64,000 bases of DNA from a virus. The notes below the pieces were generated by a model. It saw only the letters and a program-made list of their open reading frames with translations, was not told the origin of the DNA and ran no database searches. Location: the IMG/VR virus record IMGVR_UViG_3300009151_000034, positions 32,001 to 96,000 of that record; one strand, 5' to 3'. The translations under genes and the position numbers were made by a program. Below are positions 4,510 to 38,240 of the stretch, piece after piece; position 1 is the first letter of the stretch, and each line of letters begins with the position of its first letter.

Positions 4510-7157
4510 TGGCAATGAAGAAAAATCTTCCAAAAAAATCAAAAAGTGGTGACGGAAAAAACATATTCAAAGCTGGTGCTAATACTTTTGATAAAATGTT
4601 TCCTGCTTTTGCATCAAAAAACAAATATAAAAGTAAAGAAGATTCAGATCAGAAAGAAGAAAGAAATTCTTTTGAGACTCGCAGAACTATGGGCGAAGCT
4701 GCTGCAAATGTTGTCGAAAAATTAAAAGAAACTTCATCACTAGTTAAACTTTCTCTTTACGAAACAACCAAGCATAACGAATTACTACAAAAAATTATCG
4801 ACGCTTATCATGATGATTCTGGTTTTGATTTTCCTGATCTTCCAAGATTGAAATTGAAAGGACGTAGAGCAATAAGAAGCGCCGCAGAACGCAAAGCTGA
4901 AAGGGCTAGACGTAAAGCTGAAGAAAAAGCAAAAAAAGCAGAAGAGGCTAGACGTAAAGCAGAAAGCGAAAGAAAGGCAGCAGAAGAAGCTAGACGTAAA
5001 GCAGAAAACGAAAGAATTGAAGCGGAAAAAAGATTAAAAGATGCTCAAAATAAAGCAGAAAGCGAAAGAATAGAAGCTGAAAAAAGATTAAAAGATGCCG
5101 AAAAAAGAGCAATAGAAGCTGAAAAAAGAGCAATAGAAGCTGAAAAAAGCTTAAAAAATGCTCAAAATATAGCAAACAAAGAACCAATACCTACAGAACT
5201 AAAACCATTAGAACAAGTAAAACCAGTAGAACGAGAATCTGTTACTCGTGACGGCAGACCATCTAATATTCCTGATGAAATATACGTATTAAACGGTAAA
5301 CGTTATGGTAAATTTAAAAACGGTGGTTGGGCAGTGGAAACTTCATTAGGTAAATGGGGCATTTCACCCGGCGGTGAAACATTAAACCAATTAAAAAAGA
5401 TGAGAGAACAAGTTATTTCTGGTAAGAAACCGTCAACTATTACAACAACACCTAACAAAAATTTAACAACTGAAATGAAAACTGCCCTGGCCATGGGGAA
5501 AAGTGCAATTATCAGTAGTGGCACTAGGTTTGGTGCCGATCTGCGTGGTGCGACTAATATTGCTGGCGGTGCTATTATTTTAGGTTTAATTATCCGTGAT
5601 ATAGCACATGGTGATATTAAAGGGGCTTTGGAAACTGGAAAAATTACCGCTGCTGGAATTTTAATATCACCAGCGGCAGGATTTATACTTCGGGGCGCAG
5701 CAAAAAGTGCTATGATGCCAATACTTGCGACTGCTGCTGCTAAACTTATTCCTGGCGTTGGTTTACTTGCTACTTTTTATTCTATGGCAGTAAGATTATT
5801 TTATGATCCGAAAAATCCTGATTGGGTTGGCGCGGGGCTTGATTTGGTATCAGGGATTGCAATTTATTTTGGTCCTATTGGTGCGGCAATTTCGATAGGC
5901 ATAACTGTTGCGTCTCTTGCAAGAGATATTTACGCTATTGTATATGGTGTTCAAATTGAACAAGATACCTATTTTAATGAAAAACTTGCTCTTCTAGAAA
6001 TTTATGTAAAAGAAGCATTGGTCGAAGTAATTCAGCATTTTGCAGATATTAGAAAAGAAATTACACAATCGGCTATTATTTCTCCTAGTAACATGCCAAC
6101 TTTTGATATGGAAGCTTTTCCGAAGGGAATTATCACTGAAAAAGATGCTGAAAAATATGCCATGAGTTATGGTTTAATTCCAAACACCAAATTATATAAT
6201 GATTGGATGGAAAATTGGAAAAACCAAAAAAAATCAGGAGTGTCACCAATTGGATTTTTTACATCAAATATGGGAGCCGATAATTTAGAATTAAAGTCTC
6301 TCACCTTTGATGCCACTAAAATCACCATAGATGCAGAAGAATTTTTGATGACCAACAATAATCTTGGTTATGGTGGTGGTGCTGTTAGTCCTGGAATGAA
6401 AAATTTTGGCGCTGGTAGTGGTTTCCAAAATGCATCATATTCTCCACCAATGAACAATTTTGCAGCGCCTTCTGCTGCTGGTCGTGTTGATGCTCCTAGT
6501 ATTACTTCTACTCCTGGAATTGGTTTAGGAAGAACTGATACGGGACCAAATCTTCCTGCGAAAGACATAATTGATTTTTTCGTTTCGCAAGGATGGACAC
6601 CAGAACAAGCTGCTGGTATTGCTGGTAATCTTCAGCAAGAAAGTAGTCTCGATCATACACAATCTACTGTGCAAGAAAATAATGGTGTAGAATATTACGG
6701 TCTTGCCCAATGGTCCCCAGAAAGACAAGCAAATTTTAAAAAACTTTACGGAAAAGACATAAGACAATCAACTGCTCTTGAACAACTACAATTTATACAA
6801 GATGAATTGTCAGGCAAATATAAAAGAGTTGCTGAAGCATTGCGCCAAGAAACAACACCAGAAGGCGCTGCAAAATTATTTAATGAAAAATACGAAGTCG
6901 GATCAGAAGTTGAAAAAAGAATGGGATACGGAAAAGATTTCTTTTCGCAATATTCAAATCAAGGGTCTAATTTAAATAATCTATCAAGAAACCAAGCAGC
7001 ACAACAGCAACGAAACAGGAATATAGAAGTTCCTGGCCAACAACAAAACAACAATCAAAACGGAATGGGAAATATGTCTCCACCACCAAATCCTGGTAAT
7101 AGTCGTTCATATGGCGAGTCCGCAGCTAATCGAATTATAGAACTAACGGGTGCATAA
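4509..7157 (+). CDS. Tape-measure-like virion protein with C-terminal phage tail lysozyme domain
   Basis: Coiled-coil repeats, hydrophobic mid region, AAGIAGNLQQESS..GLAQW..EQLQFI; follows gp26/51. Confidence 0.7.
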   Translation: MAMKKNLPKKSKSGDGKNIFKAGANTFDKMFPAFASKNKYKSKEDSDQKEERNSFETRRTMGEAAANVVEKLKETSSLVKLSLYETTKHNELLQKIIDAYHDDSGFDFPDLPRLKLKGRRAIRSAAERKAERARRKAEEKAKKAEEARRKAESERKAAEEARRKAENERIEAEKRLKDAQNKAESERIEAEKRLKDAEKRAIEAEKRAIEAEKSLKNAQNIANKEPIPTELKPLEQVKPVERESVTRDGRPSNIPDEIYVLNGKRYGKFKNGGWAVETSLGKWGISPGGETLNQLKKMREQVISGKKPSTITTTPNKNLTTEMKTALAMGKSAIISSGTRFGADLRGATNIAGGAIILGLIIRDIAHGDIKGALETGKITAAGILISPAAGFILRGAAKSAMMPILATAAAKLIPGVGLLATFYSMAVRLFYDPKNPDWVGAGLDLVSGIAIYFGPIGAAISIGITVASLARDIYAIVYGVQIEQDTYFNEKLALLEIYVKEALVEVIQHFADIRKEITQSAIISPSNMPTFDMEAFPKGIITEKDAEKYAMSYGLIPNTKLYNDWMENWKNQKKSGVSPIGFFTSNMGADNLELKSLTFDATKITIDAEEFLMTNNNLGYGGGAVSPGMKNFGAGSGFQNASYSPPMNNFAAPSAAGRVDAPSITSTPGIGLGRTDTGPNLPAKDIIDFFVSQGWTPEQAAGIAGNLQQESSLDHTQSTVQENNGVEYYGLAQWSPERQANFKKLYGKDIRQSTALEQLQFIQDELSGKYKRVAEALRQETTPEGAAKLFNEKYEVGSEVEKRMGYGKDFFSQYSNQGSNLNNLSRNQAAQQQRNRNIEVPGQQQNNNQNGMGNMSPPPNPGNSRSYGESAANRIIELTGA

Positions 7158-17906: not shown

Positions 17907-18539
17907 TCAACCGGAAATATCGTAGTCTTCAATCATTTTTTGTGATGCTTCATTGCCAGACACAAGGGCATCACCAGACACCCAGGCATTATCAGACACA
18001 CGGGAATTACCACACACACGGGCATCACCAAACACACAGGCGTCACCAGACACAATGGCATCACCAGACACCCAGGCATCACCATACACACAGGCATCAC
18101 CAGACACCCAGGCAGTATCAGATACACAGGCATCACAATACACACAGGCATAGCCAGACACACAGGCATTACCATACACCCACGCATTATCAGACACAAT
18201 GGCATCACCAAACACACGGGCATCGTCATAGACACGGGCATAGCCATACACACGGGCATTGCCATACACACGGGCATTATCAGACACACAGGCATTGCCA
18301 GACACACGGGCATCGTCATAGACACGGGCATTGCCATACACCATGGCACTACCAGACACACAGGCATTGCCAGACACACGGGCATCGTCATAGACACGGG
18401 CATAGCCATACACACGGGCATCCGTATCGACAAACGCAGAGGCAGAAACATCTGTCGTGTCAGCAACCCATCCACCGCCATTTGAGTGCTGATGGGCGGG
18501 AACAGGGCCATTGCCGTCATTGAAATCATAAGTGGTCAT
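17907..18539 (-). CDS. Hexapeptide-repeat (left-handed beta-helix) protein
   Basis: NGGGWVA then ~28 (A-R/W/C-V-S/Y-G/D-N/D) repeats; 18-bp DNA repeat. Confidence 0.85.
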   Translation of the reverse strand: MTTYDFNDGNGPVPAHQHSNGGGWVADTTDVSASAFVDTDARVYGYARVYDDARVSGNACVSGSAMVYGNARVYDDARVSGNACVSDNARVYGNARVYGYARVYDDARVFGDAIVSDNAWVYGNACVSGYACVYCDACVSDTAWVSGDACVYGDAWVSGDAIVSGDACVFGDARVCGNSRVSDNAWVSGDALVSGNEASQKMIEDYDISG

Positions 18540-18590
18540 TGTAGTCTCCTTGCTCTCTATAGCCACATAATAGCATATCTACGCCAGATG

Positions 18591-32692: not shown

Positions 32693-34582
32693 TTAAATTT
32701 CACATCCTCCTGCAACACATGCTAGTTCTTGTGTTCCTGTTGTCTTATCCTCATGTTCATTTACATTATACAAGTCGAAATCAACTTCTGGGAATGTCTT
32801 GATCATTTCATCATATGCTTCTTTAGTCATTGGCTGATATGGTGCTTGTTGATAAATGGTGTCGTTGTAAGGTAAGAACGAAACGCCATTGATTTGATCA
32901 AAGTGTTTATAGACCCAGGCACCAACTTCAAGCCATTCATGTTCACGCACATAGACAGTGATTGAAGGATTGTGTTCTACGTAATGCTCACCAACAATCA
33001 AGTAATGCTCTAGCTGATCGATAGCGGTCATTTCAGAAGCAATACGGCAATGTTCTGGTGACTTCATTGGGAAAGAAAATACCCAATTACTATCTTTCAT
33101 TACGTCAGTTTCATGAGGAACGCCCTGAGAAATCAAGAAATCAGATAGTGGGTCTTTCTTATCATTACGAACTGTTCTGATGTAGTATCGAGACATACGT
33201 GGATGAATACCAGATGACGAATCAACTAATTGTGAAACTGTCCCAGAGGGTTTCACGGTGGTAATTGATGCAGATGCAGGAATACCAAGTTTTTCTGCCC
33301 ATTCCTTGTTGACTTTTACGGCATGTTCACGAAGAGTAATAAACCAGTTCTTTGCTTCTTCTGTGGGATAACCAATAACAGGATGATCCATAATACCAGT
33401 TAATGAAACACCAAGTAAACGTTCTTCTTCAACATTCTTTTTCCAAACAGAACGAAGATAACGGAAGTCAGTTAGTGTGGATTGGAATGTTCCCATAATT
33501 GTTGCAAATTTAATTTTTGCAAGTAGAGTCTCTAAGGTATCTTGCTCACGGACAACAACCTCAGTCAAGTTACAAAATTCGTTTGGACGTAGAATAATTT
33601 CACCGCAAGGGTTTGTTCCGAAATCATAATTCGACTTACGGCGATCACCAAGACTCTTAACTTTCTTGATAGCAGCCACACGATTAACAATACCACGTTC
33701 ACCTGACTTAGAATCATAAAGAGATAGCCATTCTTTCATGAACGCACCAATATCAGGTTTTTCGGTATAAGCAGCAGAATTGTTAGCAAGCGCACGGTGA
33801 GCATCATCAACCCACCACTGACCATTCTTTGCACCACGCATACGATCATCAGAAAGATTTGACAATGAAATCAATGCACTACGACGAACACCACCAACTA
33901 CAACAACGTCGGCAATTTTGCACACAATATCATGGCATTCGATACTTGTTAGTTTTCTACCAGCAGCCTTACGGAAAATATTAATAGTAAATTTGAAAAG
34001 ATCATTGAGTGGAGCAGGTCCAGAAGAGCGACCACCAAATGTCTTAAGTGGAGCGCCAGCAGGACGTAGGGCAGTCAAATCCCATTGAGGCACCTGTCCA
34101 GCATAAAGAAGATTGATCAATTCACGATAAGAAGAAGCCCAGCCGATCTTTGAATCACGAACTTTAATTGTGGTTTCTGTTGGATGAAATTCTTCTGAGA
34201 CTACTGGTAGCTTGCTGACGAATTGGCGCTCAACAGAGAAGCCTAGGCCCGTGCCACACATTAAAATATACAAAGCCTCATCGAAACAACGAGGGTCATC
34301 TACGGCGATATATGAGCAATTATAACCCGCAACATTATCACGATCTAGAGCCTTACCAGCAGTCATAAGAGCACGCATGGAAGGCATAACTTCTAGGTTT
34401 ACGATAGAATTATAAATTTCATTCTTTGGAAAGGAATTGTCTCGTTCATAGAAATAATCGCAATATCTCTGAACAGTTTCTTCCCATGATTCGCGGCGAG
34501 TCTTTTCAGGAAGGAAACGGGCATATCTCGAAAGTGAAATATAGCGTTGATACGGATTAAGTCTTTGATTTTTAATACTCAT
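32693..34582 (-). CDS. nrdJ: Class II (adenosylcobalamin-dependent) ribonucleotide reductase
   Basis: YNCSY..GGVRRSA..TNPCGEI..KPSGT..C-terminal ACVAGGCE; no nrdB in window. Confidence 0.9.
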   Translation of the reverse strand: MSIKNQRLNPYQRYISLSRYARFLPEKTRRESWEETVQRYCDYFYERDNSFPKNEIYNSIVNLEVMPSMRALMTAGKALDRDNVAGYNCSYIAVDDPRCFDEALYILMCGTGLGFSVERQFVSKLPVVSEEFHPTETTIKVRDSKIGWASSYRELINLLYAGQVPQWDLTALRPAGAPLKTFGGRSSGPAPLNDLFKFTINIFRKAAGRKLTSIECHDIVCKIADVVVVGGVRRSALISLSNLSDDRMRGAKNGQWWVDDAHRALANNSAAYTEKPDIGAFMKEWLSLYDSKSGERGIVNRVAAIKKVKSLGDRRKSNYDFGTNPCGEIILRPNEFCNLTEVVVREQDTLETLLAKIKFATIMGTFQSTLTDFRYLRSVWKKNVEEERLLGVSLTGIMDHPVIGYPTEEAKNWFITLREHAVKVNKEWAEKLGIPASASITTVKPSGTVSQLVDSSSGIHPRMSRYYIRTVRNDKKDPLSDFLISQGVPHETDVMKDSNWVFSFPMKSPEHCRIASEMTAIDQLEHYLIVGEHYVEHNPSITVYVREHEWLEVGAWVYKHFDQINGVSFLPYNDTIYQQAPYQPMTKEAYDEMIKTFPEVDFDLYNVNEHEDKTTGTQELACVAGGCEI

Positions 34583-35515: not shown

Positions 35516-35773
35516 TCAATTCACATTAAGCTTTGCAGGCTCAACAAAATAATAGCCCTGTTCTCTCAGATAGTCAAGTTGTTTTTCAGTTGCTTTGATG
35601 GCAGGATAAACACTGGATCGTTCATAACTAGGATTGAAAGCCCATAGTTGATATATTTCTACACCACACTTAAGAGCATGATACGTGAAATGACCTAGTG
35701 ATGCCTTTGAAAGATTTGGTATTTTTCCTTCTCTCTCAGAAATATGATATGCTTTTTTCGTATCTACCTTCAT
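35516..35773 (-). CDS. Hypothetical protein
   Basis: ORF in operon. Confidence 0.55.
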   Translation of the reverse strand: MKVDTKKAYHISEREGKIPNLSKASLGHFTYHALKCGVEIYQLWAFNPSYERSSVYPAIKATEKQLDYLREQGYYFVEPAKLNVN

Positions 35774-35966
35774 ACTCTCTTAAATTCTCATTAACTTGCC
35801 AAAATGAAAAGTGGTTAGCTTGTTCAGTTATAGAATATTCTTTATTATAAGGAATCCAAATTCGTTCCCTTATTTTTTCATTCTGTGTGTTTCTTGTCAT
35901 TTTCCATAACGTATCTTTTATATCATCATGTATTTTATATGCAAAAATACTTTTCTTACGCATCAT
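35736..35966 (-). CDS. Hypothetical protein, possibly a diverged member of the QV array
   Basis: Same overlapping junction type; QVNENLRE near the end. Confidence 0.5.
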   Translation of the reverse strand: MMRKKSIFAYKIHDDIKDTLWKMTRNTQNEKIRERIWIPYNKEYSITEQANHFSFWQVNENLREYEGRYEKSISYF

Positions 35967-36156
35967 TTAAATCTTCCCTGACTTGATCCCAGATTTGATA
36001 GCTGACTTGATCTCCGACTTGATCTCCGACTTGATCGTGGACTTGACACCTGACTTGAATACCGACTTGATAGCTGACTTGATCCTCGGCTTGTTCACAG
36101 ACTTGATACCAGACTTGCCCGCTGACTTGTTTATTAATTTGTTTTTTAACAGTCAT
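35956..36156 (-). CDS. QVxx tetrapeptide-repeat micro-protein, unit 4
   Basis: MTVKK-(QVxx)n-REDL. Confidence 0.7.
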   Translation of the reverse strand: MTVKKQINKQVSGQVWYQVCEQAEDQVSYQVGIQVRCQVHDQVGDQVGDQVSYQIWDQVREDLNDA

Positions 36157-36346
36157 CTAAATCTTCCCTGACTTGACTACTGACTTGACTCCTGACTTGA
36201 CTACTGACTTGACTCCTGACTTGAATACCAACTTGATTCCAGACTTGATCCTGGATTTGATCCCAGACTTGATAGCTGACTTGATCCCAGACTTGATCCC
36301 TGACTTGATAGCTGACTTGATCCCAGATTTGTTTTTTAACGGTCAT
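36146..36346 (-). CDS. QVxx repeat micro-protein, unit 3
   Basis: MTVKK-(QVxx)n-REDLDD. Confidence 0.7.
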   Translation of the reverse strand: MTVKKQIWDQVSYQVRDQVWDQVSYQVWDQIQDQVWNQVGIQVRSQVSSQVRSQVSSQVREDLDDC

Positions 36347-36512
36347 CTAAATCTTCCCTGACTTGACTATTGACTTGATCCCCGGCTTGATCCCCGACAT
36401 GATCCCAGACTTGTTCACAGACTTGATACCAGACTTGATGCAAGACTTGATGCAAGACTTGATCCCCGGCTTGTTCACAGACTTGTTTACTAATTTGTTT
36501 TTTAACGGTCAT
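36336..36512 (-). CDS. QVxx repeat micro-protein, unit 2 (58 aa, not in ORF track)
   Basis: MTVKKQISKQVCEQAGDQVLHQVLHQVWYQVCEQVWDHVGDQAGDQVNSQVREDLDDR. Confidence 0.7.
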   Translation of the reverse strand: MTVKKQISKQVCEQAGDQVLHQVLHQVWYQVCEQVWDHVGDQAGDQVNSQVREDLDDR

Positions 36513-36702
36513 CTAAATCTTCCCTGACTTGATCCCAGACTTGATCCCAGACTTGATTTGTGATTTGAACCCTGACTTGATCCCCGACTTGATCCCTGAC
36601 TTGACCACAGACTTGATGCCTGACTTGATTACCGACTTGATACCTGACTTGTTCCCAGGCTTGATCCCAGATTTGATACCTGACTTGTTTTTTAACGGTC
36701 AT
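36502..36702 (-). CDS. QVxx repeat micro-protein, unit 1
   Basis: MTVKK-(QVxx)n-REDLDDR. Confidence 0.7.
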   Translation of the reverse strand: MTVKKQVRYQIWDQAWEQVRYQVGNQVRHQVCGQVRDQVGDQVRVQITNQVWDQVWDQVREDLDDR

Positions 36703-36886
36703 CTAAATCTTCCAAATTTTCCAATAATTGATTTTTAGCATATATTTTATTAATAACTACCATCGAAGAAAGAACCATATGCCTAGTATAAACAATAGTC
36801 TGTATTTGTCGATTTACACATATTGGTTCTTGCATATGCTTAAGAACATCATTATAAATTATTTTTTTGATTTTAGATAATACCAT
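36692..36886 (-). CDS. Hypothetical protein ending EDLDDR (head of the array)
   Basis: Shares its C-terminal junction with the repeat units. Confidence 0.5.
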   Translation of the reverse strand: MVLSKIKKIIYNDVLKHMQEPICVNRQIQTIVYTRHMVLSSMVVINKIYAKNQLLENLEDLDDR

Positions 36887-36968
36887 GATATATGAAAGAC
36901 CTTTATACGACAGGAATAAAAATGGGGAGCAGTTTATTTTTTGCTCCCCATTGATACAACCAGTTATT

Positions 36969-37850
36969 TTAGGTTCGGAACTCCAAATCCCGTAGTTCGT
37001 TTTCCTCAAACCCATATGTCCATGCGTTGGCTTGCAGGGCAGTTTTCATTTCAGGTGGCACAGGAATTGCGAATGACCTTCCAGTCCCACAAAGAACTTG
37101 CAAGAACTTTTCGGTGCCAATGTCGGGGATATCAACCTCTAGAAGTGTTCCGATCATTGGGTCTTCGTCAACATCGATAACCTTAGAATTCAATTCCTTA
37201 AGAATATGAACCCAACCAAGAATTTCACAAGCAACGCGGCGAAGTTCTAGATTATCTTGCTTCAATGCCTCTTTAGCTGTTAGAGACTTCTTATCAGCAA
37301 TCCAGTGCCAACGCTTACGATCAAGACGAACACCATGCCAAGCATATACTTTAGTGTCATCCATATATTCGATAGCAGGTCCATCTTCGCAATGTAGACG
37401 ATTCTGATCATCGAACTTGATAAGCATTGGGCGTTCCTGAATAATAGCCTCATCCTCATCAACCCAGGCCCAACCACCTTCCTTGGCATATTCAACTAGA
37501 CCGTTAATGATGCTGAGATCGATACCACAAACATCATTAAAATAAGAATAAAAGCTAATCCAAGAACTGTCCTGAGAACCGAAAATGTTTCCATTCATAA
37601 AGGAATTTACATCACCTTCGGGACGAATTGACTTGTAAATCTTATAGGCATCGTGTGGACCCTTAGCGTAATACATTTTGCTAGGTGCCTTAAGATTTTG
37701 CGTAGTATAACAAAGTGCAAGGGCCTTCTTAGCCTTAGCAAAATCAATAACATCGGTATTAAGACCAATCTTCAACCACTTGGCAAGATGCATAGGAATC
37801 ATTGCTTCTTGTTCTGGGGTTAGCTTATCGATCTTATTTGTAGCGGCCAT
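36969..37850 (-). CDS. DUF6745-like protein
   Basis: KLTPEQEA..GSQDSSW..RLHCEDGPAI..YAWHGV..N.E.RRV..VPP. Confidence 0.78.
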   Translation of the reverse strand: MAATNKIDKLTPEQEAMIPMHLAKWLKIGLNTDVIDFAKAKKALALCYTTQNLKAPSKMYYAKGPHDAYKIYKSIRPEGDVNSFMNGNIFGSQDSSWISFYSYFNDVCGIDLSIINGLVEYAKEGGWAWVDEDEAIIQERPMLIKFDDQNRLHCEDGPAIEYMDDTKVYAWHGVRLDRKRWHWIADKKSLTAKEALKQDNLELRRVACEILGWVHILKELNSKVIDVDEDPMIGTLLEVDIPDIGTEKFLQVLCGTGRSFAIPVPPEMKTALQANAWTYGFEENELRDLEFRT

Positions 37851-37877
37851 AATATAATTTCCTTTATGTTTCAGATA

Positions 37878-38240
37878 TTAGTCAGCAGCCTTACGAAAAC
37901 CTTCTGGTGTATACTCTCGCTGGCGACGAATCATATACTTTCCAGGAGGAACTAGAATGCTTTCGTGTGTATCATGTGATCGTAGATGATCGATTTTAGT
38001 ATCTTCTTTTACTAGAAGAAACATTTTATACAAATCAATGTTCTGTGTATTGCTTTTGTTAGTCACAGGTTCGAAAGCCTCAACATATTCAGCTTCCATT
38101 ACGTGATTATGCATAGTTTCAGAATGAGCAACCACGATATGACCATTCTCTGCATTTACAGGAACGATATTTTCTGGGAACTCGTTGATACGCACAATGA
38201 TAAAATCACCTTGCGCTGCCATATTTTTAAGAATCTTCAT
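37878..38240 (-). CDS. Conserved His-rich partner protein (QGD...RQREY)
   Basis: QGD..HSETMHNH..H..H..PPGKY..RRQREY..AD. Confidence 0.75.
   Translation of the reverse strand: MKILKNMAAQGDFIIVRINEFPENIVPVNAENGHIVVAHSETMHNHVMEAEYVEAFEPVTNKSNTQNIDLYKMFLLVKEDTKIDHLRSHDTHESILVPPGKYMIRRQREYTPEGFRKAAD

What the first reader, a model, noticed from the sequence alone, without database searches (positions are those of the whole stretch)
35736..38240. Array of hypervariable QVxx micro-proteins co-transcribed with a repeat-less DUF6745-like gene
Seen in sequence: four translationally coupled ORFs (58-66 aa) share fixed ends (MTVKK...REDL) and contain 12-nt repeats in which Gln-Val is nearly invariant and the other two residues vary widely (WD, RD, SY, CE, GI, LH, RS). 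All four frames are intact, and two diverged ORFs flank them. From recall, DUF6745-like proteins often carry QVWDQV-type repeats internally; the one here has none. Inference: the variable module is supplied in trans as a recombination-diversified peptide set acting with DUF6745 and the His-rich QGD/RQREY protein, possibly as an adaptor, decoy or anti-defence system.
Basis: partly seen in the sequence, partly recalled or inferred. Interest (0 to 1): 0.75.

Follow-up and report, generated by a model that had tools for sequence, protein, structure and literature searches.

The report
Detached QV-repeat mini-genes beside repeat-less DUF6745
An uncultured T4-like phage encodes, as a row of tiny separate genes, the fast-changing four-amino-acid repeat that related phages build into one unstudied protein (DUF6745); modelling predicts that these mini-proteins clip back onto the repeat-less DUF6745, which would give one core many interchangeable surfaces.

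Summary
Four overlapping minus-strand ORFs (58-66 aa, 35956-36702) consist almost wholly of 12-nt xxQV units. They lie downstream of a repeat-less DUF6745 gene and a His-rich 120-aa gene.

Comparison with other phages supports the split-module reading:
- About a third of DUF6745 relatives carry a tetrapeptide tract (xxQV, xxQL, xxSV and others) at one fixed internal site. The window protein has about 20-30 non-repeat residues there.
- Among 118 DUF6745 loci, none of 17 with an internal tract has stand-alone QV genes. 79 of 101 repeat-less ones do, on the same strand.
- Longer proteins that match a QV mini-protein are almost all DUF6745.
- A folded complex passes its controls (0.79 against 0.23) and places both ends of the mini-protein at the vacant insertion loop.
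- The His-rich gene is a near-constant neighbour of DUF6745.

The genome has a second array 39 kb away, and the two arrays share mosaic blocks. The Q and V codons are almost always CAA GTC, against the local codon usage.

Function is unknown. The nearest studied analogue, not a homologue, is mycobacteriophage Tweety gp54, whose tetrapeptide repeat number tunes counter-defence.

This scan reached the same reading earlier on three other phage genomes (e1-5653957, e1-5653966, e1-5706530). Translation, binding and function are all untested.

The parts
37878..38240 (-). His-rich 120-aa protein (QGD ... HSETxHNH ... RRQREY), the conserved partner of DUF6745
   Evidence: ORF. phrog_27831 at E 3.6e-9. 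No match in Pfam, NCBIfam, PDB sequences or PADLOC. A homologue lies beside DUF6745 in 92 of 101 repeat-less and 10 of 17 repeat-bearing loci, including Ma-LMM01 gp175 and prophiGD102-1 gp37.
36969..37850 (-). Repeat-less DUF6745 protein (293 aa), the proposed scaffold
   Evidence: Pfam PF20530 at 101 bits. AlphaFold2 model with pLDDT 90. No known fold: best Foldseek E 0.16 and best VIA Z 4.4. Alignments A1 and A3 show about 20-30 non-repeat residues (about 76-93) where relatives carry the tract.
36692..36886 (-). 64-aa non-repeat ORF that ends in the array junction (..LEDLDDR). The longest open frame runs up to 37015.
   Evidence: The orthologue is called as a 64-aa gene in L016 and L017.
36502..36702 (-). 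QV mini-gene 4 (66 aa)
36336..36512 (-). QV mini-gene 3 (58 aa)
36146..36346 (-). QV mini-gene 2 (66 aa), the one modelled in complex with DUF6745
   Evidence: It shares a 33-nt block, with a rare CAAGTT variant, with two genes of array 2.
35956..36156 (-). QV mini-gene 1 (66 aa)
35736..35966 (-). 76-aa non-repeat ORF whose start sits in the last array junction
   Evidence: No homologue was found in the related loci.
35977..36687 (.). 12-nt tandem repeat tract (about 60 units) with the constant hexamer CAAGTC on the coding (minus) strand
   Evidence: Tandem Repeats Finder, position weight table, codon test.

Best explanation
This is the split form of a conserved phage module with three parts: a small His-rich protein, DUF6745, and a tetrapeptide-repeat tract.

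In many phages the tract is inserted in a loop of the N-terminal helical part of DUF6745. It runs from 4 to more than 60 units of xxQV, xxQL, xxSV and similar. AlphaFold2 draws it, at low confidence, as a long helical hairpin.

In this T4-like phage the loop is short and has no repeats. The tract is instead encoded as separate proteins of 58-66 aa, about 12-14 units each, with short fixed ends. There are four next to DUF6745 and at least five more in a second array 39 kb away.

Inferred: each mini-protein folds as a hairpin and docks with both ends at the vacant insertion loop. One scaffold could then carry any of several hairpins, each showing a different pattern of W, R, G, S, Y or E at the two variable positions.

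The arrays change in three ways: in-frame 12-nt slippage, gain and loss of cassettes at the roughly 30-nt junction, and conversion between arrays. The junction encodes the EDL tail, an SD-like GGGAAGA, the stop and the next ATG all at once.

The cellular role is unknown. My best guess, about one in three, is a tunable interaction with host or defence proteins, as shown for the non-homologous Tweety gp54.
For: Anatomy (shown):
- The junction is conserved in both arrays.
- Relatives carry the tract at one fixed site. 49 of 150 cluster representatives have a period-4 tract of 22-235 aa, most often xxQV.

Exclusivity:
- 0 of 17 loci with an internal tract have stand-alone QV ORFs, against 79 of 101 repeat-less loci (49 of 61 after removing duplicates). 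Fisher p is about 1e-9, not corrected for phylogeny.
- In the subset found by protein alone the counts are 0 of 4 against 62 of 84. That gives p of about 0.006 by my own hypergeometric arithmetic on the table.
- Two of five records scored as having neither form do carry arrays farther along the contig.
- A quick tree needs at least 4 switches between the fused and split states on well-supported branches.

Specificity:
- 56 longer proteins match a QV mini-protein. At least 41 carry PF20530, and several unannotated ones are visibly the same family.

Protein-level constraint:
- 279 distinct stand-alone QV ORFs have a median of 65 aa (IQR 60-74), while internal tracts range widely.
- In the fused forms the QV frame must be read to join the two halves of DUF6745.

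Modelled complex of DUF6745 with QV mini-gene 2:
- Score 0.79, best of 3 controls 0.23. This mark was reached by 58 of 80 solved complexes and 2 of 110 mismatched pairs; those counts hold only roughly here because my own alignments were used.
- The runs agree in at least 95% of contacts, and the partner's pLDDT is at least 84.
- Mini-protein residues 4-8 touch DUF6745 residues 87-89, and residues 51-58 touch 90 and 93. Both ends therefore sit at the canonical insertion loop.

Rapid turnover:
- A relative whose DUF6745 is 96% identical has a different set of cassettes.
- Identical blocks of 33-65 nt are shared between ORFs and between the two arrays.

Analogy:
- In Tweety gp54 the repeat number tunes counter-defence. 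Its 12-bp units likewise keep third codon positions fixed and vary at first and second positions (PMC2884959, PMC9262239).
Against: - There is no expression, proteomic or binding data. Read-level checks were not possible.
- The complex model may simply rebuild what the network learned from fused homologues, so it is not independent of the comparative evidence.
- The helical hairpin in the fused form has low confidence (pLDDT 42-70).
- Most split forms lie in one large clade, so the co-occurrence rests on few independent events.
- DUF6745 plus the His-rich gene also occur with no tract at all (Ma-LMM01) or with no array within 8 kb.
- Array 2 of this genome is 39 kb from DUF6745.
- The near-total lack of synonymous change in CAA GTC, against the local codon usage, also fits a constraint at the DNA level.
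- The counter-defence role is pure analogy. Tweety gp54 is not a homologue.
Confidence: 0.58

Rival explanations
1. The QV mini-genes are translated, but they act on their own, for example as small early host-takeover or decoy proteins. They lie beside DUF6745 only because they arose from its excised tract or from spill-over of the same repeat DNA.
For: - Array 2 lies 39 kb from DUF6745, next to RNA ligase and a kinase.
- Some records have QV ORFs and no full DUF6745.
- A few proteins carry QV tracts in other contexts: P0171 with a weak macro-domain match, and P0168.
- DUF6745 and the His-rich gene persist without nearby arrays.
Against: - Fused and split forms are mutually exclusive, with several switches between the two states.
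- The modelled complex passes and docks the mini-protein at the insertion loop.
- Nearly all longer matches to a QV mini-protein are DUF6745.
- G023, which has no full DUF6745, still has an ORF resembling the N-terminal half near its QV genes.
Confidence: 0.2
2. The element acts as DNA or RNA. An array of ATCAAGTC sites spaced 12 nt apart would serve as binding sites for a phage or host protein, iteron-like sites or a recombination hot spot. The ORFs would be by-products of a stop-free repeat.
For: - Q is CAA in 95 of 96 units and V is GTC in 86 of 96. Neighbouring genes use CAA 17: CAG 11 and GTC in only 6 of 71 Val codons. The same bias appears in most loci found by protein search, even where the background uses CAG.
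- Third positions of the second variable codon are also fixed, and 42 of 118 units contain GATC.
- Antisense and other frames are open too.
- DUF6745 genes sit in replication or nucleotide-metabolism regions.
Against: - The fused tracts must be translated in the QV frame.
- Other lineages keep the period and the residue pattern with different DNA: CAGGTC, CAAGTA, CAGCTG for QL, and SSL or SV tracts.
- Every cassette has an ATG, an SD-like motif and a stop at regular intervals.
- ORF length is tightly distributed.
- The arrays always lie on the strand of DUF6745.
- The same codon pattern in Tweety gp54 goes with a protein-level phenotype (PMC2884959, PMC9262239).
Confidence: 0.12
3. The array is non-functional debris or an assembly artefact of a low-complexity repeat.
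For: Short-read assemblers can mis-build tandem repeats, and no reads could be laid on this record.
Against: - Two independent assemblies carry identical QV genes (L016 and L017).
- The same architecture with intact ORFs appears in more than 60 loci from many samples.
- All 9 QV ORFs in this genome are intact.
Confidence: 0.04

Closest known systems
DUF6745 (Pfam PF20530, phrog_31813) proteins with an internal tetrapeptide tract, such as Mycobacterium prophage prophiGD102-1 gp38 (xxQL, about 50 units), Caudoviricetes sp. MW202476 UOF77368 (xSSL) and the IMG/VR protein at L152 (xxQV, about 37 units)
   Same: - Homologous N-terminal helical part and C-terminal DUF6745 domain.
- The same His-rich neighbour.
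- The same period-4 unit, often the same QV residues and the same CAAGTC hexamer.
   Different: In those proteins the tract is one in-frame insertion in the protein. In the window the insertion site is empty, and the tract is cut into separate genes of about 60-66 aa, each with its own start, stop and SD-like motif. None of these proteins has a known function, and no paper in the searched library mentions DUF6745.
Mycobacteriophage Tweety gp54 (with Che8 gp57 and PMC gp51)
   Same: - A phage early-region protein with unique N- and C-terminal parts around 15-48 in-frame 12-bp tetrapeptide units.
- Two fixed and two variable residues per unit. The variable ones include G and W.
- Third codon positions are invariant.
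- Changes in repeat number tune a counter-defence activity against Phrann gp29/gp30 (PMC2884959, PMC9262239).
   Different: It is not homologous. It has no DUF6745 domain and its unit is AAxx. The repeat is always internal, and no stand-alone mini-genes are described.
Central conserved region of type IC HsdS (EcoR124I versus EcoR124II), where 2 or 3 copies of a 12-bp TAEL repeat in a helical spacer set the spacing of the DNA target (from my own knowledge, not checked in a paper here)
   Same: An in-frame 12-bp tetrapeptide repeat in a helical spacer acts as a length ruler. The repeat region of the fused L152 protein gives a weak match to a PADLOC HsdS model (E 1.4e-4).
   Different: There are no target-recognition domains and no restriction-modification context. 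The match covers only the repeat and is probably compositional.
Arrays of variant cassettes that serve one machine, such as prochlorosin precursor peptides or the modular shuffling of small early genes in T4-type phages (from my own knowledge)
   Same: Many small, co-oriented, fast-changing genes with fixed ends lie next to, or work with, one conserved protein. Cassettes come and go at conserved junctions.
   Different: The fused forms show that the repeat is a structural part of DUF6745, not a substrate. The junction here is a translational-coupling unit, not a promoter stem-loop.

Membership tests
Pfam DUF6745 (PF20530) | Match to the roughly 200-residue C-terminal domain above the gathering score | tested here: met
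   101.1 bits against a cut-off of 27, residues 87-286. There is one copy in the genome.
Pfam DUF6745 (PF20530) | N-terminal helical part shared with homologues (LTxEQ ... W..GL.T ... SP) | tested here: met
   Alignments A1, A2 and A3.
DUF6745 with an internal tetrapeptide tract | Period-4 tract at the canonical site between the SP..A helix and the YG..D..W..FY motif | tested here: not met
   The window protein has non-repeat residues there and scores 0 internal units.
DUF6745 module | Adjacent His-rich partner of about 115-130 aa (phrog_27831) | tested here: met
   phrog_27831 at E 3.6e-9. Present beside DUF6745 in 102 of 118 loci.
Tweety gp54-like counter-defence proteins | Sequence homology to the gp54 N- and C-terminal parts | tested here: not met
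   gp54 has no Pfam family and no DUF6745. tblastn with a repeat-bearing DUF6745 finds no mycobacteriophage of the Tweety group.
Tweety gp54-like counter-defence proteins | In-frame 12-bp units with fixed third positions and variable first and second positions | tested here: met
   compared with PMC2884959.
Tweety gp54-like counter-defence proteins | A change in repeat number changes escape from a defence system | not testable with these tools
   This needs phage genetics.
Diversity-generating retroelement | Reverse transcriptase plus a template/variable repeat pair with adenine-specific changes | tested here: not met
   No RVT_1 in the complete genome, while the control genomes do match. The variable positions are not adenine-specific.
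Pentapeptide-repeat proteins | Period-5 A(D/N)LXX units and a Pfam Pentapeptide match | tested here: not met
   The period is 12 nt, or 4 aa. There is no such Pfam match. The tract is modelled as helix.
Type I HsdS | Two target-recognition domains around the helical spacer | tested here: not met
   There is only a weak PADLOC match confined to the repeat region of L152, and no Methylase_S in Pfam.

The most novel reading that the evidence does not exclude
A plug-in library. One DUF6745 scaffold, with its His-rich partner, is loaded in trans with any of about a dozen interchangeable repeat hairpins, each encoded as its own mini-gene. The mini-genes are shuffled by slippage and by cassette exchange between two arrays. 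A single phage would then express a whole repertoire of recognition surfaces at once, for example against variable host defence or takeover targets. This would be a way of generating diversity unlike DGRs, shufflons or single tunable repeat proteins.
Probability: 0.3. Interest if true: 0.85.

Novelty: new variant of a known kind. Interest (0 to 1): 0.72.

Why it matters
DUF6745 is a very large, wholly unstudied phage family: 8,512 clusters at 50% identity match at E up to 0.001. Its defining oddity is a hypervariable tetrapeptide tract. The split form seen here is a natural experiment. It separates the variable tract from the scaffold, gives testable binding partners, and shows that a phage may keep many variants at once rather than one. 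If the analogy with Tweety gp54 holds, this would be a widespread tunable counter-defence module in environmental T4-like phages. It would also be a clear case of functional micro-proteins that standard annotation tends to miss.

Tried and rejected
- Fold of DUF6745: the best Foldseek match against the PDB had E 0.16. VIA-align against 48,161 chains gave a best Z of 4.4, over residues 212-285 only. No usable match.
- His-rich protein: nothing in Pfam, NCBIfam, PADLOC or PDB sequences, either alone or as a 17-member alignment. Only DUF4399 appeared, in 3 members at E 0.0016. The Atlas returned only viral hypothetical clusters.
- Single-protein scan of viral contigs found nothing. The alignment scan worked.
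- DGR: rejected.
- Beta-helix like the pentapeptide repeats: considered because the pattern 'small, polar, hydrophobic, variable' looks similar. Dropped because the second position is mostly Asp and the model is helical.
- Reading the four ORFs as one polyprotein by +1 frameshifting at CGT-TAA-AAAAA: the P-site tRNA would re-pair poorly, and each cassette has its own ATG and SD-like motif. Judged unlikely, but not testable here.
- Origin iterons inside a gene linker, as in lambda O: kept only as part of the DNA-level rival.
- G027, a complete genome with the DNA pattern but no DUF6745: its repeat is a different QVQG low-complexity tract, so it is not a true exception.
- Promoter and terminator scan: no more sites than in shuffled sequence.
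- Searching the paper library for 'DUF6745' returned nothing.
Full report
**What is in the window.** On the minus strand, from upstream to downstream, lie these ORFs:
- a 120-aa His-rich ORF (37878-38240);
- a 293-aa ORF (36969-37850);
- a 64-aa non-repeat ORF (36692-36886; the open frame extends to 37015);
- four ORFs of 66, 58, 66 and 66 aa (36502-36702, 36336-36512, 36146-36346, 35956-36156);
- a 76-aa non-repeat ORF (35736-35966).

From the 64-aa ORF onward each gene overlaps the next by 11 nt. The four small ORFs begin MTVKKQ and end QVREDL(D/N)D. Between those ends they are made of four-residue units. Tandem Repeats Finder reports a single 12-nt tract of about 60 copies at 35977-36687. 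The 293-aa protein is a clear DUF6745 (PF20530, 101 bits against a cut-off of 27) with no repeat.

**The genome.** The window is part of a complete IMG/VR virus record of 149,097 bp with terminal repeats. It is T4-like. Its primase is about 42% identical to those of Methylophilales phage Melnitz and other T4-type phages. The genome has one DUF6745 gene. A second QV array lies at genome 107446-109477, outside the window. It holds at least five QV genes plus diverged 60-61-aa genes that use the same junction, and it sits next to an RNA ligase and a kinase.

**The repeat unit.** Across 118 units the coding-strand 12-mer reads N-G-G/N-G/A-A-T-C-A-A-G-T-C. The first codon is mostly TGG, AGG, GGG, AGC or AGT. 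The second is mostly GAT, TAT, AAT or GAA.
- Gln is CAA in 95 of 96 QV units and Val is GTC in 86 of 96. In neighbouring genes the counts are CAA 17: CAG 11, and GTC in only 6 of 71 Val codons.
- The same CAAGTC bias holds in nearly all related loci that were found by protein similarity, even where the background uses only CAG. A few lineages have switched to CAGGTC or CAAGTA.
- So variation is concentrated in first and second codon positions of two residues, while synonymous sites are almost frozen.

**The junction.** Every cassette boundary in both arrays reads about ...caagtcaGGGAAGAtttagATGACcGTTAAAAAACAA. It encodes the EDL tail, an SD-like motif, the stop and the next start. Non-repeat ORFs plug into the same junction.

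**Relatives with the tract inside the protein.** tblastn against deposited phages found longer homologues.
- A Manatee Spring phage protein of 425 aa has about 30 xSSL units.
- M. abscessus prophage prophiGD102-1 gp38 (481 aa) has about 50 xxQL units.
- Ma-LMM01 gp174 has none.
- A DNA-pattern scan of IMG/VR for four spaced CAAGTC hexamers gave many phage contigs in which the tract is inside a DUF6745 ORF. Examples are L152 (423 aa), L104, L163, L116, L136, L175 (60 or more units) and L124 (7 units).
- Alignments A1 and A3 place all tracts at one site, after the SP..A helix and before YG..D..W..FY. The window protein has about 20-30 non-repeat residues there, about 76-93.
- An exhaustive profile-free search found 8,512 clusters at 50% identity at E up to 0.001. 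Of the best 150, 49 have a period-4 tract of 22-235 aa. The motif is most often xxQV, but also xxQL, xxSV, xxAT and others. Some have long non-repeat inserts at the same place.

**Relatives with the tract outside the protein.** The closest relatives (51-96% identity) are all about 283-305 aa and have no repeat. Their neighbourhoods show the same trio with changes in order.
- L016 (96% identical): DUF6745, the 64-aa ORF, two QV genes, four non-repeat genes with EDL-like tails, one QV gene, then ThyX.
- L020: His-rich gene, DUF6745, then at least three QV genes.
- L018: three QV genes, DUF6745, one QV gene, then the His-rich gene.
- An alignment scan of IMG/VR gave 80 more loci.

**Counts across 118 loci with a DUF6745 ORF.**
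- 17 have 4 or more internal units. None of these has a stand-alone QV ORF in its flanks.
- 101 are repeat-less. 79 of these have between 1 and 18 stand-alone QV ORFs on the same strand.
- Fisher p is about 1e-9, or 8e-10 after removing duplicates. This is not corrected for phylogeny.
- In the subset ascertained by protein only, the counts are 0 of 4 against 62 of 84. That gives p of about 0.006 by my own hypergeometric arithmetic.
- Two of five records scored as having neither form carry arrays farther along the contig.
- A quick maximum-likelihood tree of the C-terminal domain puts fused forms on the deep branches and most split forms in one large clade. It also nests split L101 and L129 among fused forms, and fused L099 and L100 among split forms. 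At least four state changes are forced by well-supported branches. The long branches make this provisional.

**Specificity of the link.** I searched a QV mini-protein against longer proteins and got 56 hits. At least 41 carry PF20530, and several unannotated ones are visibly DUF6745. Exceptions exist: P0171 has a weak macro-domain match plus a QV tract, and P0168 has other flanking sequence. Of the records reached through the DNA pattern, 5 of 6 that are at least 90% complete have DUF6745. The sixth, G027, carries a different QVQG repeat. G023 lacks a full DUF6745 but has a 193-aa ORF matching the N-terminal half near its QV genes.

**The His-rich partner.** A homologue lies beside DUF6745 in 92 of 101 repeat-less and 10 of 17 fused loci, on either side of it. 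This includes Ma-LMM01 gp175 and prophiGD102-1 gp37. It has invariant His, Gly, Arg and Asp positions and the motifs QGD, (H/G)xE.TGH.H and QREY. It belongs to no described family.

**Structure.**
- The window DUF6745 folds with confidence (pLDDT 90) into an N-terminal helical part and a beta-rich C-terminal part. No solved structure resembles it.
- In the fused L152 protein the tract is drawn as two long antiparallel helices, 65-138 and 145-198, that leave and re-enter the helical part. Confidence there is low (pLDDT 42-70).
- A complex of the window DUF6745 with QV mini-gene 2 passes the tool's test. The score is 0.79 and the best of 3 controls is 0.23. That mark was reached by 58 of 80 solved complexes and 2 of 110 mismatched pairs, though the counts hold only roughly with my own alignments. 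The runs agree in at least 95% of contacts and the partner's pLDDT is at least 84.
- In that model, mini-protein residues 4-8 touch DUF6745 residues 47, 87-89, 118 and 130. Residues 51-58 touch 90, 93, 144, 160 and 168. Both ends meet at the vacant insertion loop, as expected for a detached hairpin.
- The network may be rebuilding the arrangement it knows from fused homologues. I therefore treat this result as showing consistency, not as independent proof.

**Evidence that the mini-genes are read as protein.**
- The fused forms require the QV frame.
- The arrays always share the strand of DUF6745.
- Every cassette has an ATG, an SD-like motif and a stop.
- 279 distinct stand-alone QV ORFs have a narrow size range, with a median of 65 aa, an IQR of 60-74 and about 12 units. 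Internal tracts range from 4 to more than 60 units.
- Other frames are open too, as expected for a stop-free repeat, so open frames alone prove nothing.

**How the arrays evolve.**
- A relative with 96% identical DUF6745 has a different cassette set.
- QV genes are only 47-65% identical to one another.
- Identical 33-65-nt blocks are shared between ORFs and between the two arrays, including a block marked by a rare CAAGTT variant.
- This fits in-frame slippage, unequal exchange at the junction and conversion between arrays. No reverse transcriptase is present, and the variable positions are not adenine-specific, so this is not a DGR.

**Comparison with what is known.**
- No paper in the library mentions DUF6745.
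- The nearest studied case is mycobacteriophage Tweety gp54. It has unique ends around 40-48 AAxx units and 12-bp repeats, with fixed third positions and variable first and second positions. [quoted passage not shown]
- gp54 is not a DUF6745 protein, so this is an analogy of design and not membership of one family.
- A second analogy, from my own knowledge, is the TAEL repeat ruler in the helical spacer of type IC HsdS. The fused tract gives only a weak, probably compositional, match to an HsdS model.

**Verdict.** The split-module reading is well supported by comparative genomics and is consistent with modelling. The function is unknown, and a tunable host or defence interaction is my best guess at about one in three. 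The DNA-level rival keeps some weight because of the frozen CAAGTC hexamer. The same reading was reached earlier in this scan on three other phage genomes. I arrived at it here before I saw those notes.

Noticed in passing
outside the window: genome G000 107446-109477, minus strand (would be window 75446-77477): A second QV array. It has QV genes of 100, 58, 58, 71 (or 64) and 58 aa, three diverged 60-61-aa genes on the same junction, and a 53-aa and a 119-aa non-repeat gene embedded in it. It lies next to an RNA ligase (392 aa) and a P-loop kinase (165 aa). The 119-aa gene has no Pfam match.
   Followed up: partly
window 17907-18566, minus strand (repeat at 17956-18422): A 219-aa ORF built from about 26 copies of an 18-nt unit. 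The hexapeptide reads roughly V-(S/Y)-G-(N/D)-A-(R/C/W), which resembles left-handed beta-helix hexapeptide repeats. Again one position varies among R, C and W. The plus-strand ORF 17953-18153 (PDTQAS units) is its antisense image.
   Followed up: partly
L058:7770-8855 (IMG/VR 3300008120_000681): The first 75 or so residues of the His-rich protein are fused in frame to DUF6745 in one 361-aa ORF. The near-identical L062 keeps the two genes separate. This is probably a deletion, or an assembly difference.
   Followed up: no
protein P0171 (435 aa, JGI): A protein with a weak macro-domain match (19.9 bits, below the cut-off; named O-acetyl-ADP-ribose deacetylase by its source). The macro part is followed by about 24 xxQV units and a short tail that resembles the start of the DUF6745 post-tract motif.
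   Followed up: partly
G023 (IMG/VR record holding L158) 4883-5460: A 193-aa ORF that matches only the N-terminal helical half of DUF6745. It lies near stand-alone xSQV genes in a 58-kb record with terminal repeats. It may be a further-reduced scaffold.
   Followed up: no
window 35977-36687 and array 2: 42 of 118 units contain GATC (GAT CAA), so the arrays are dense runs of potential Dam sites spaced 12 nt apart.
   Followed up: no
whole genome G000: There are 13 tRNA genes. They include Gln-UUG, Gln-CUG, Trp-CCA, Arg-UCU, Asn-GUU and Gly-UCC, which read the commonest codons of the QV genes (CAA, TGG, AGG, AAT, GGG). No Val or Asp tRNA is present.
   Followed up: no
L016:3623-7026 compared with window 32693-34582: The relative with 96% identical DUF6745 has, next to ThyX, a class I ribonucleotide reductase large subunit split by an intein. 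This genome has a single 629-aa reductase there.
   Followed up: no
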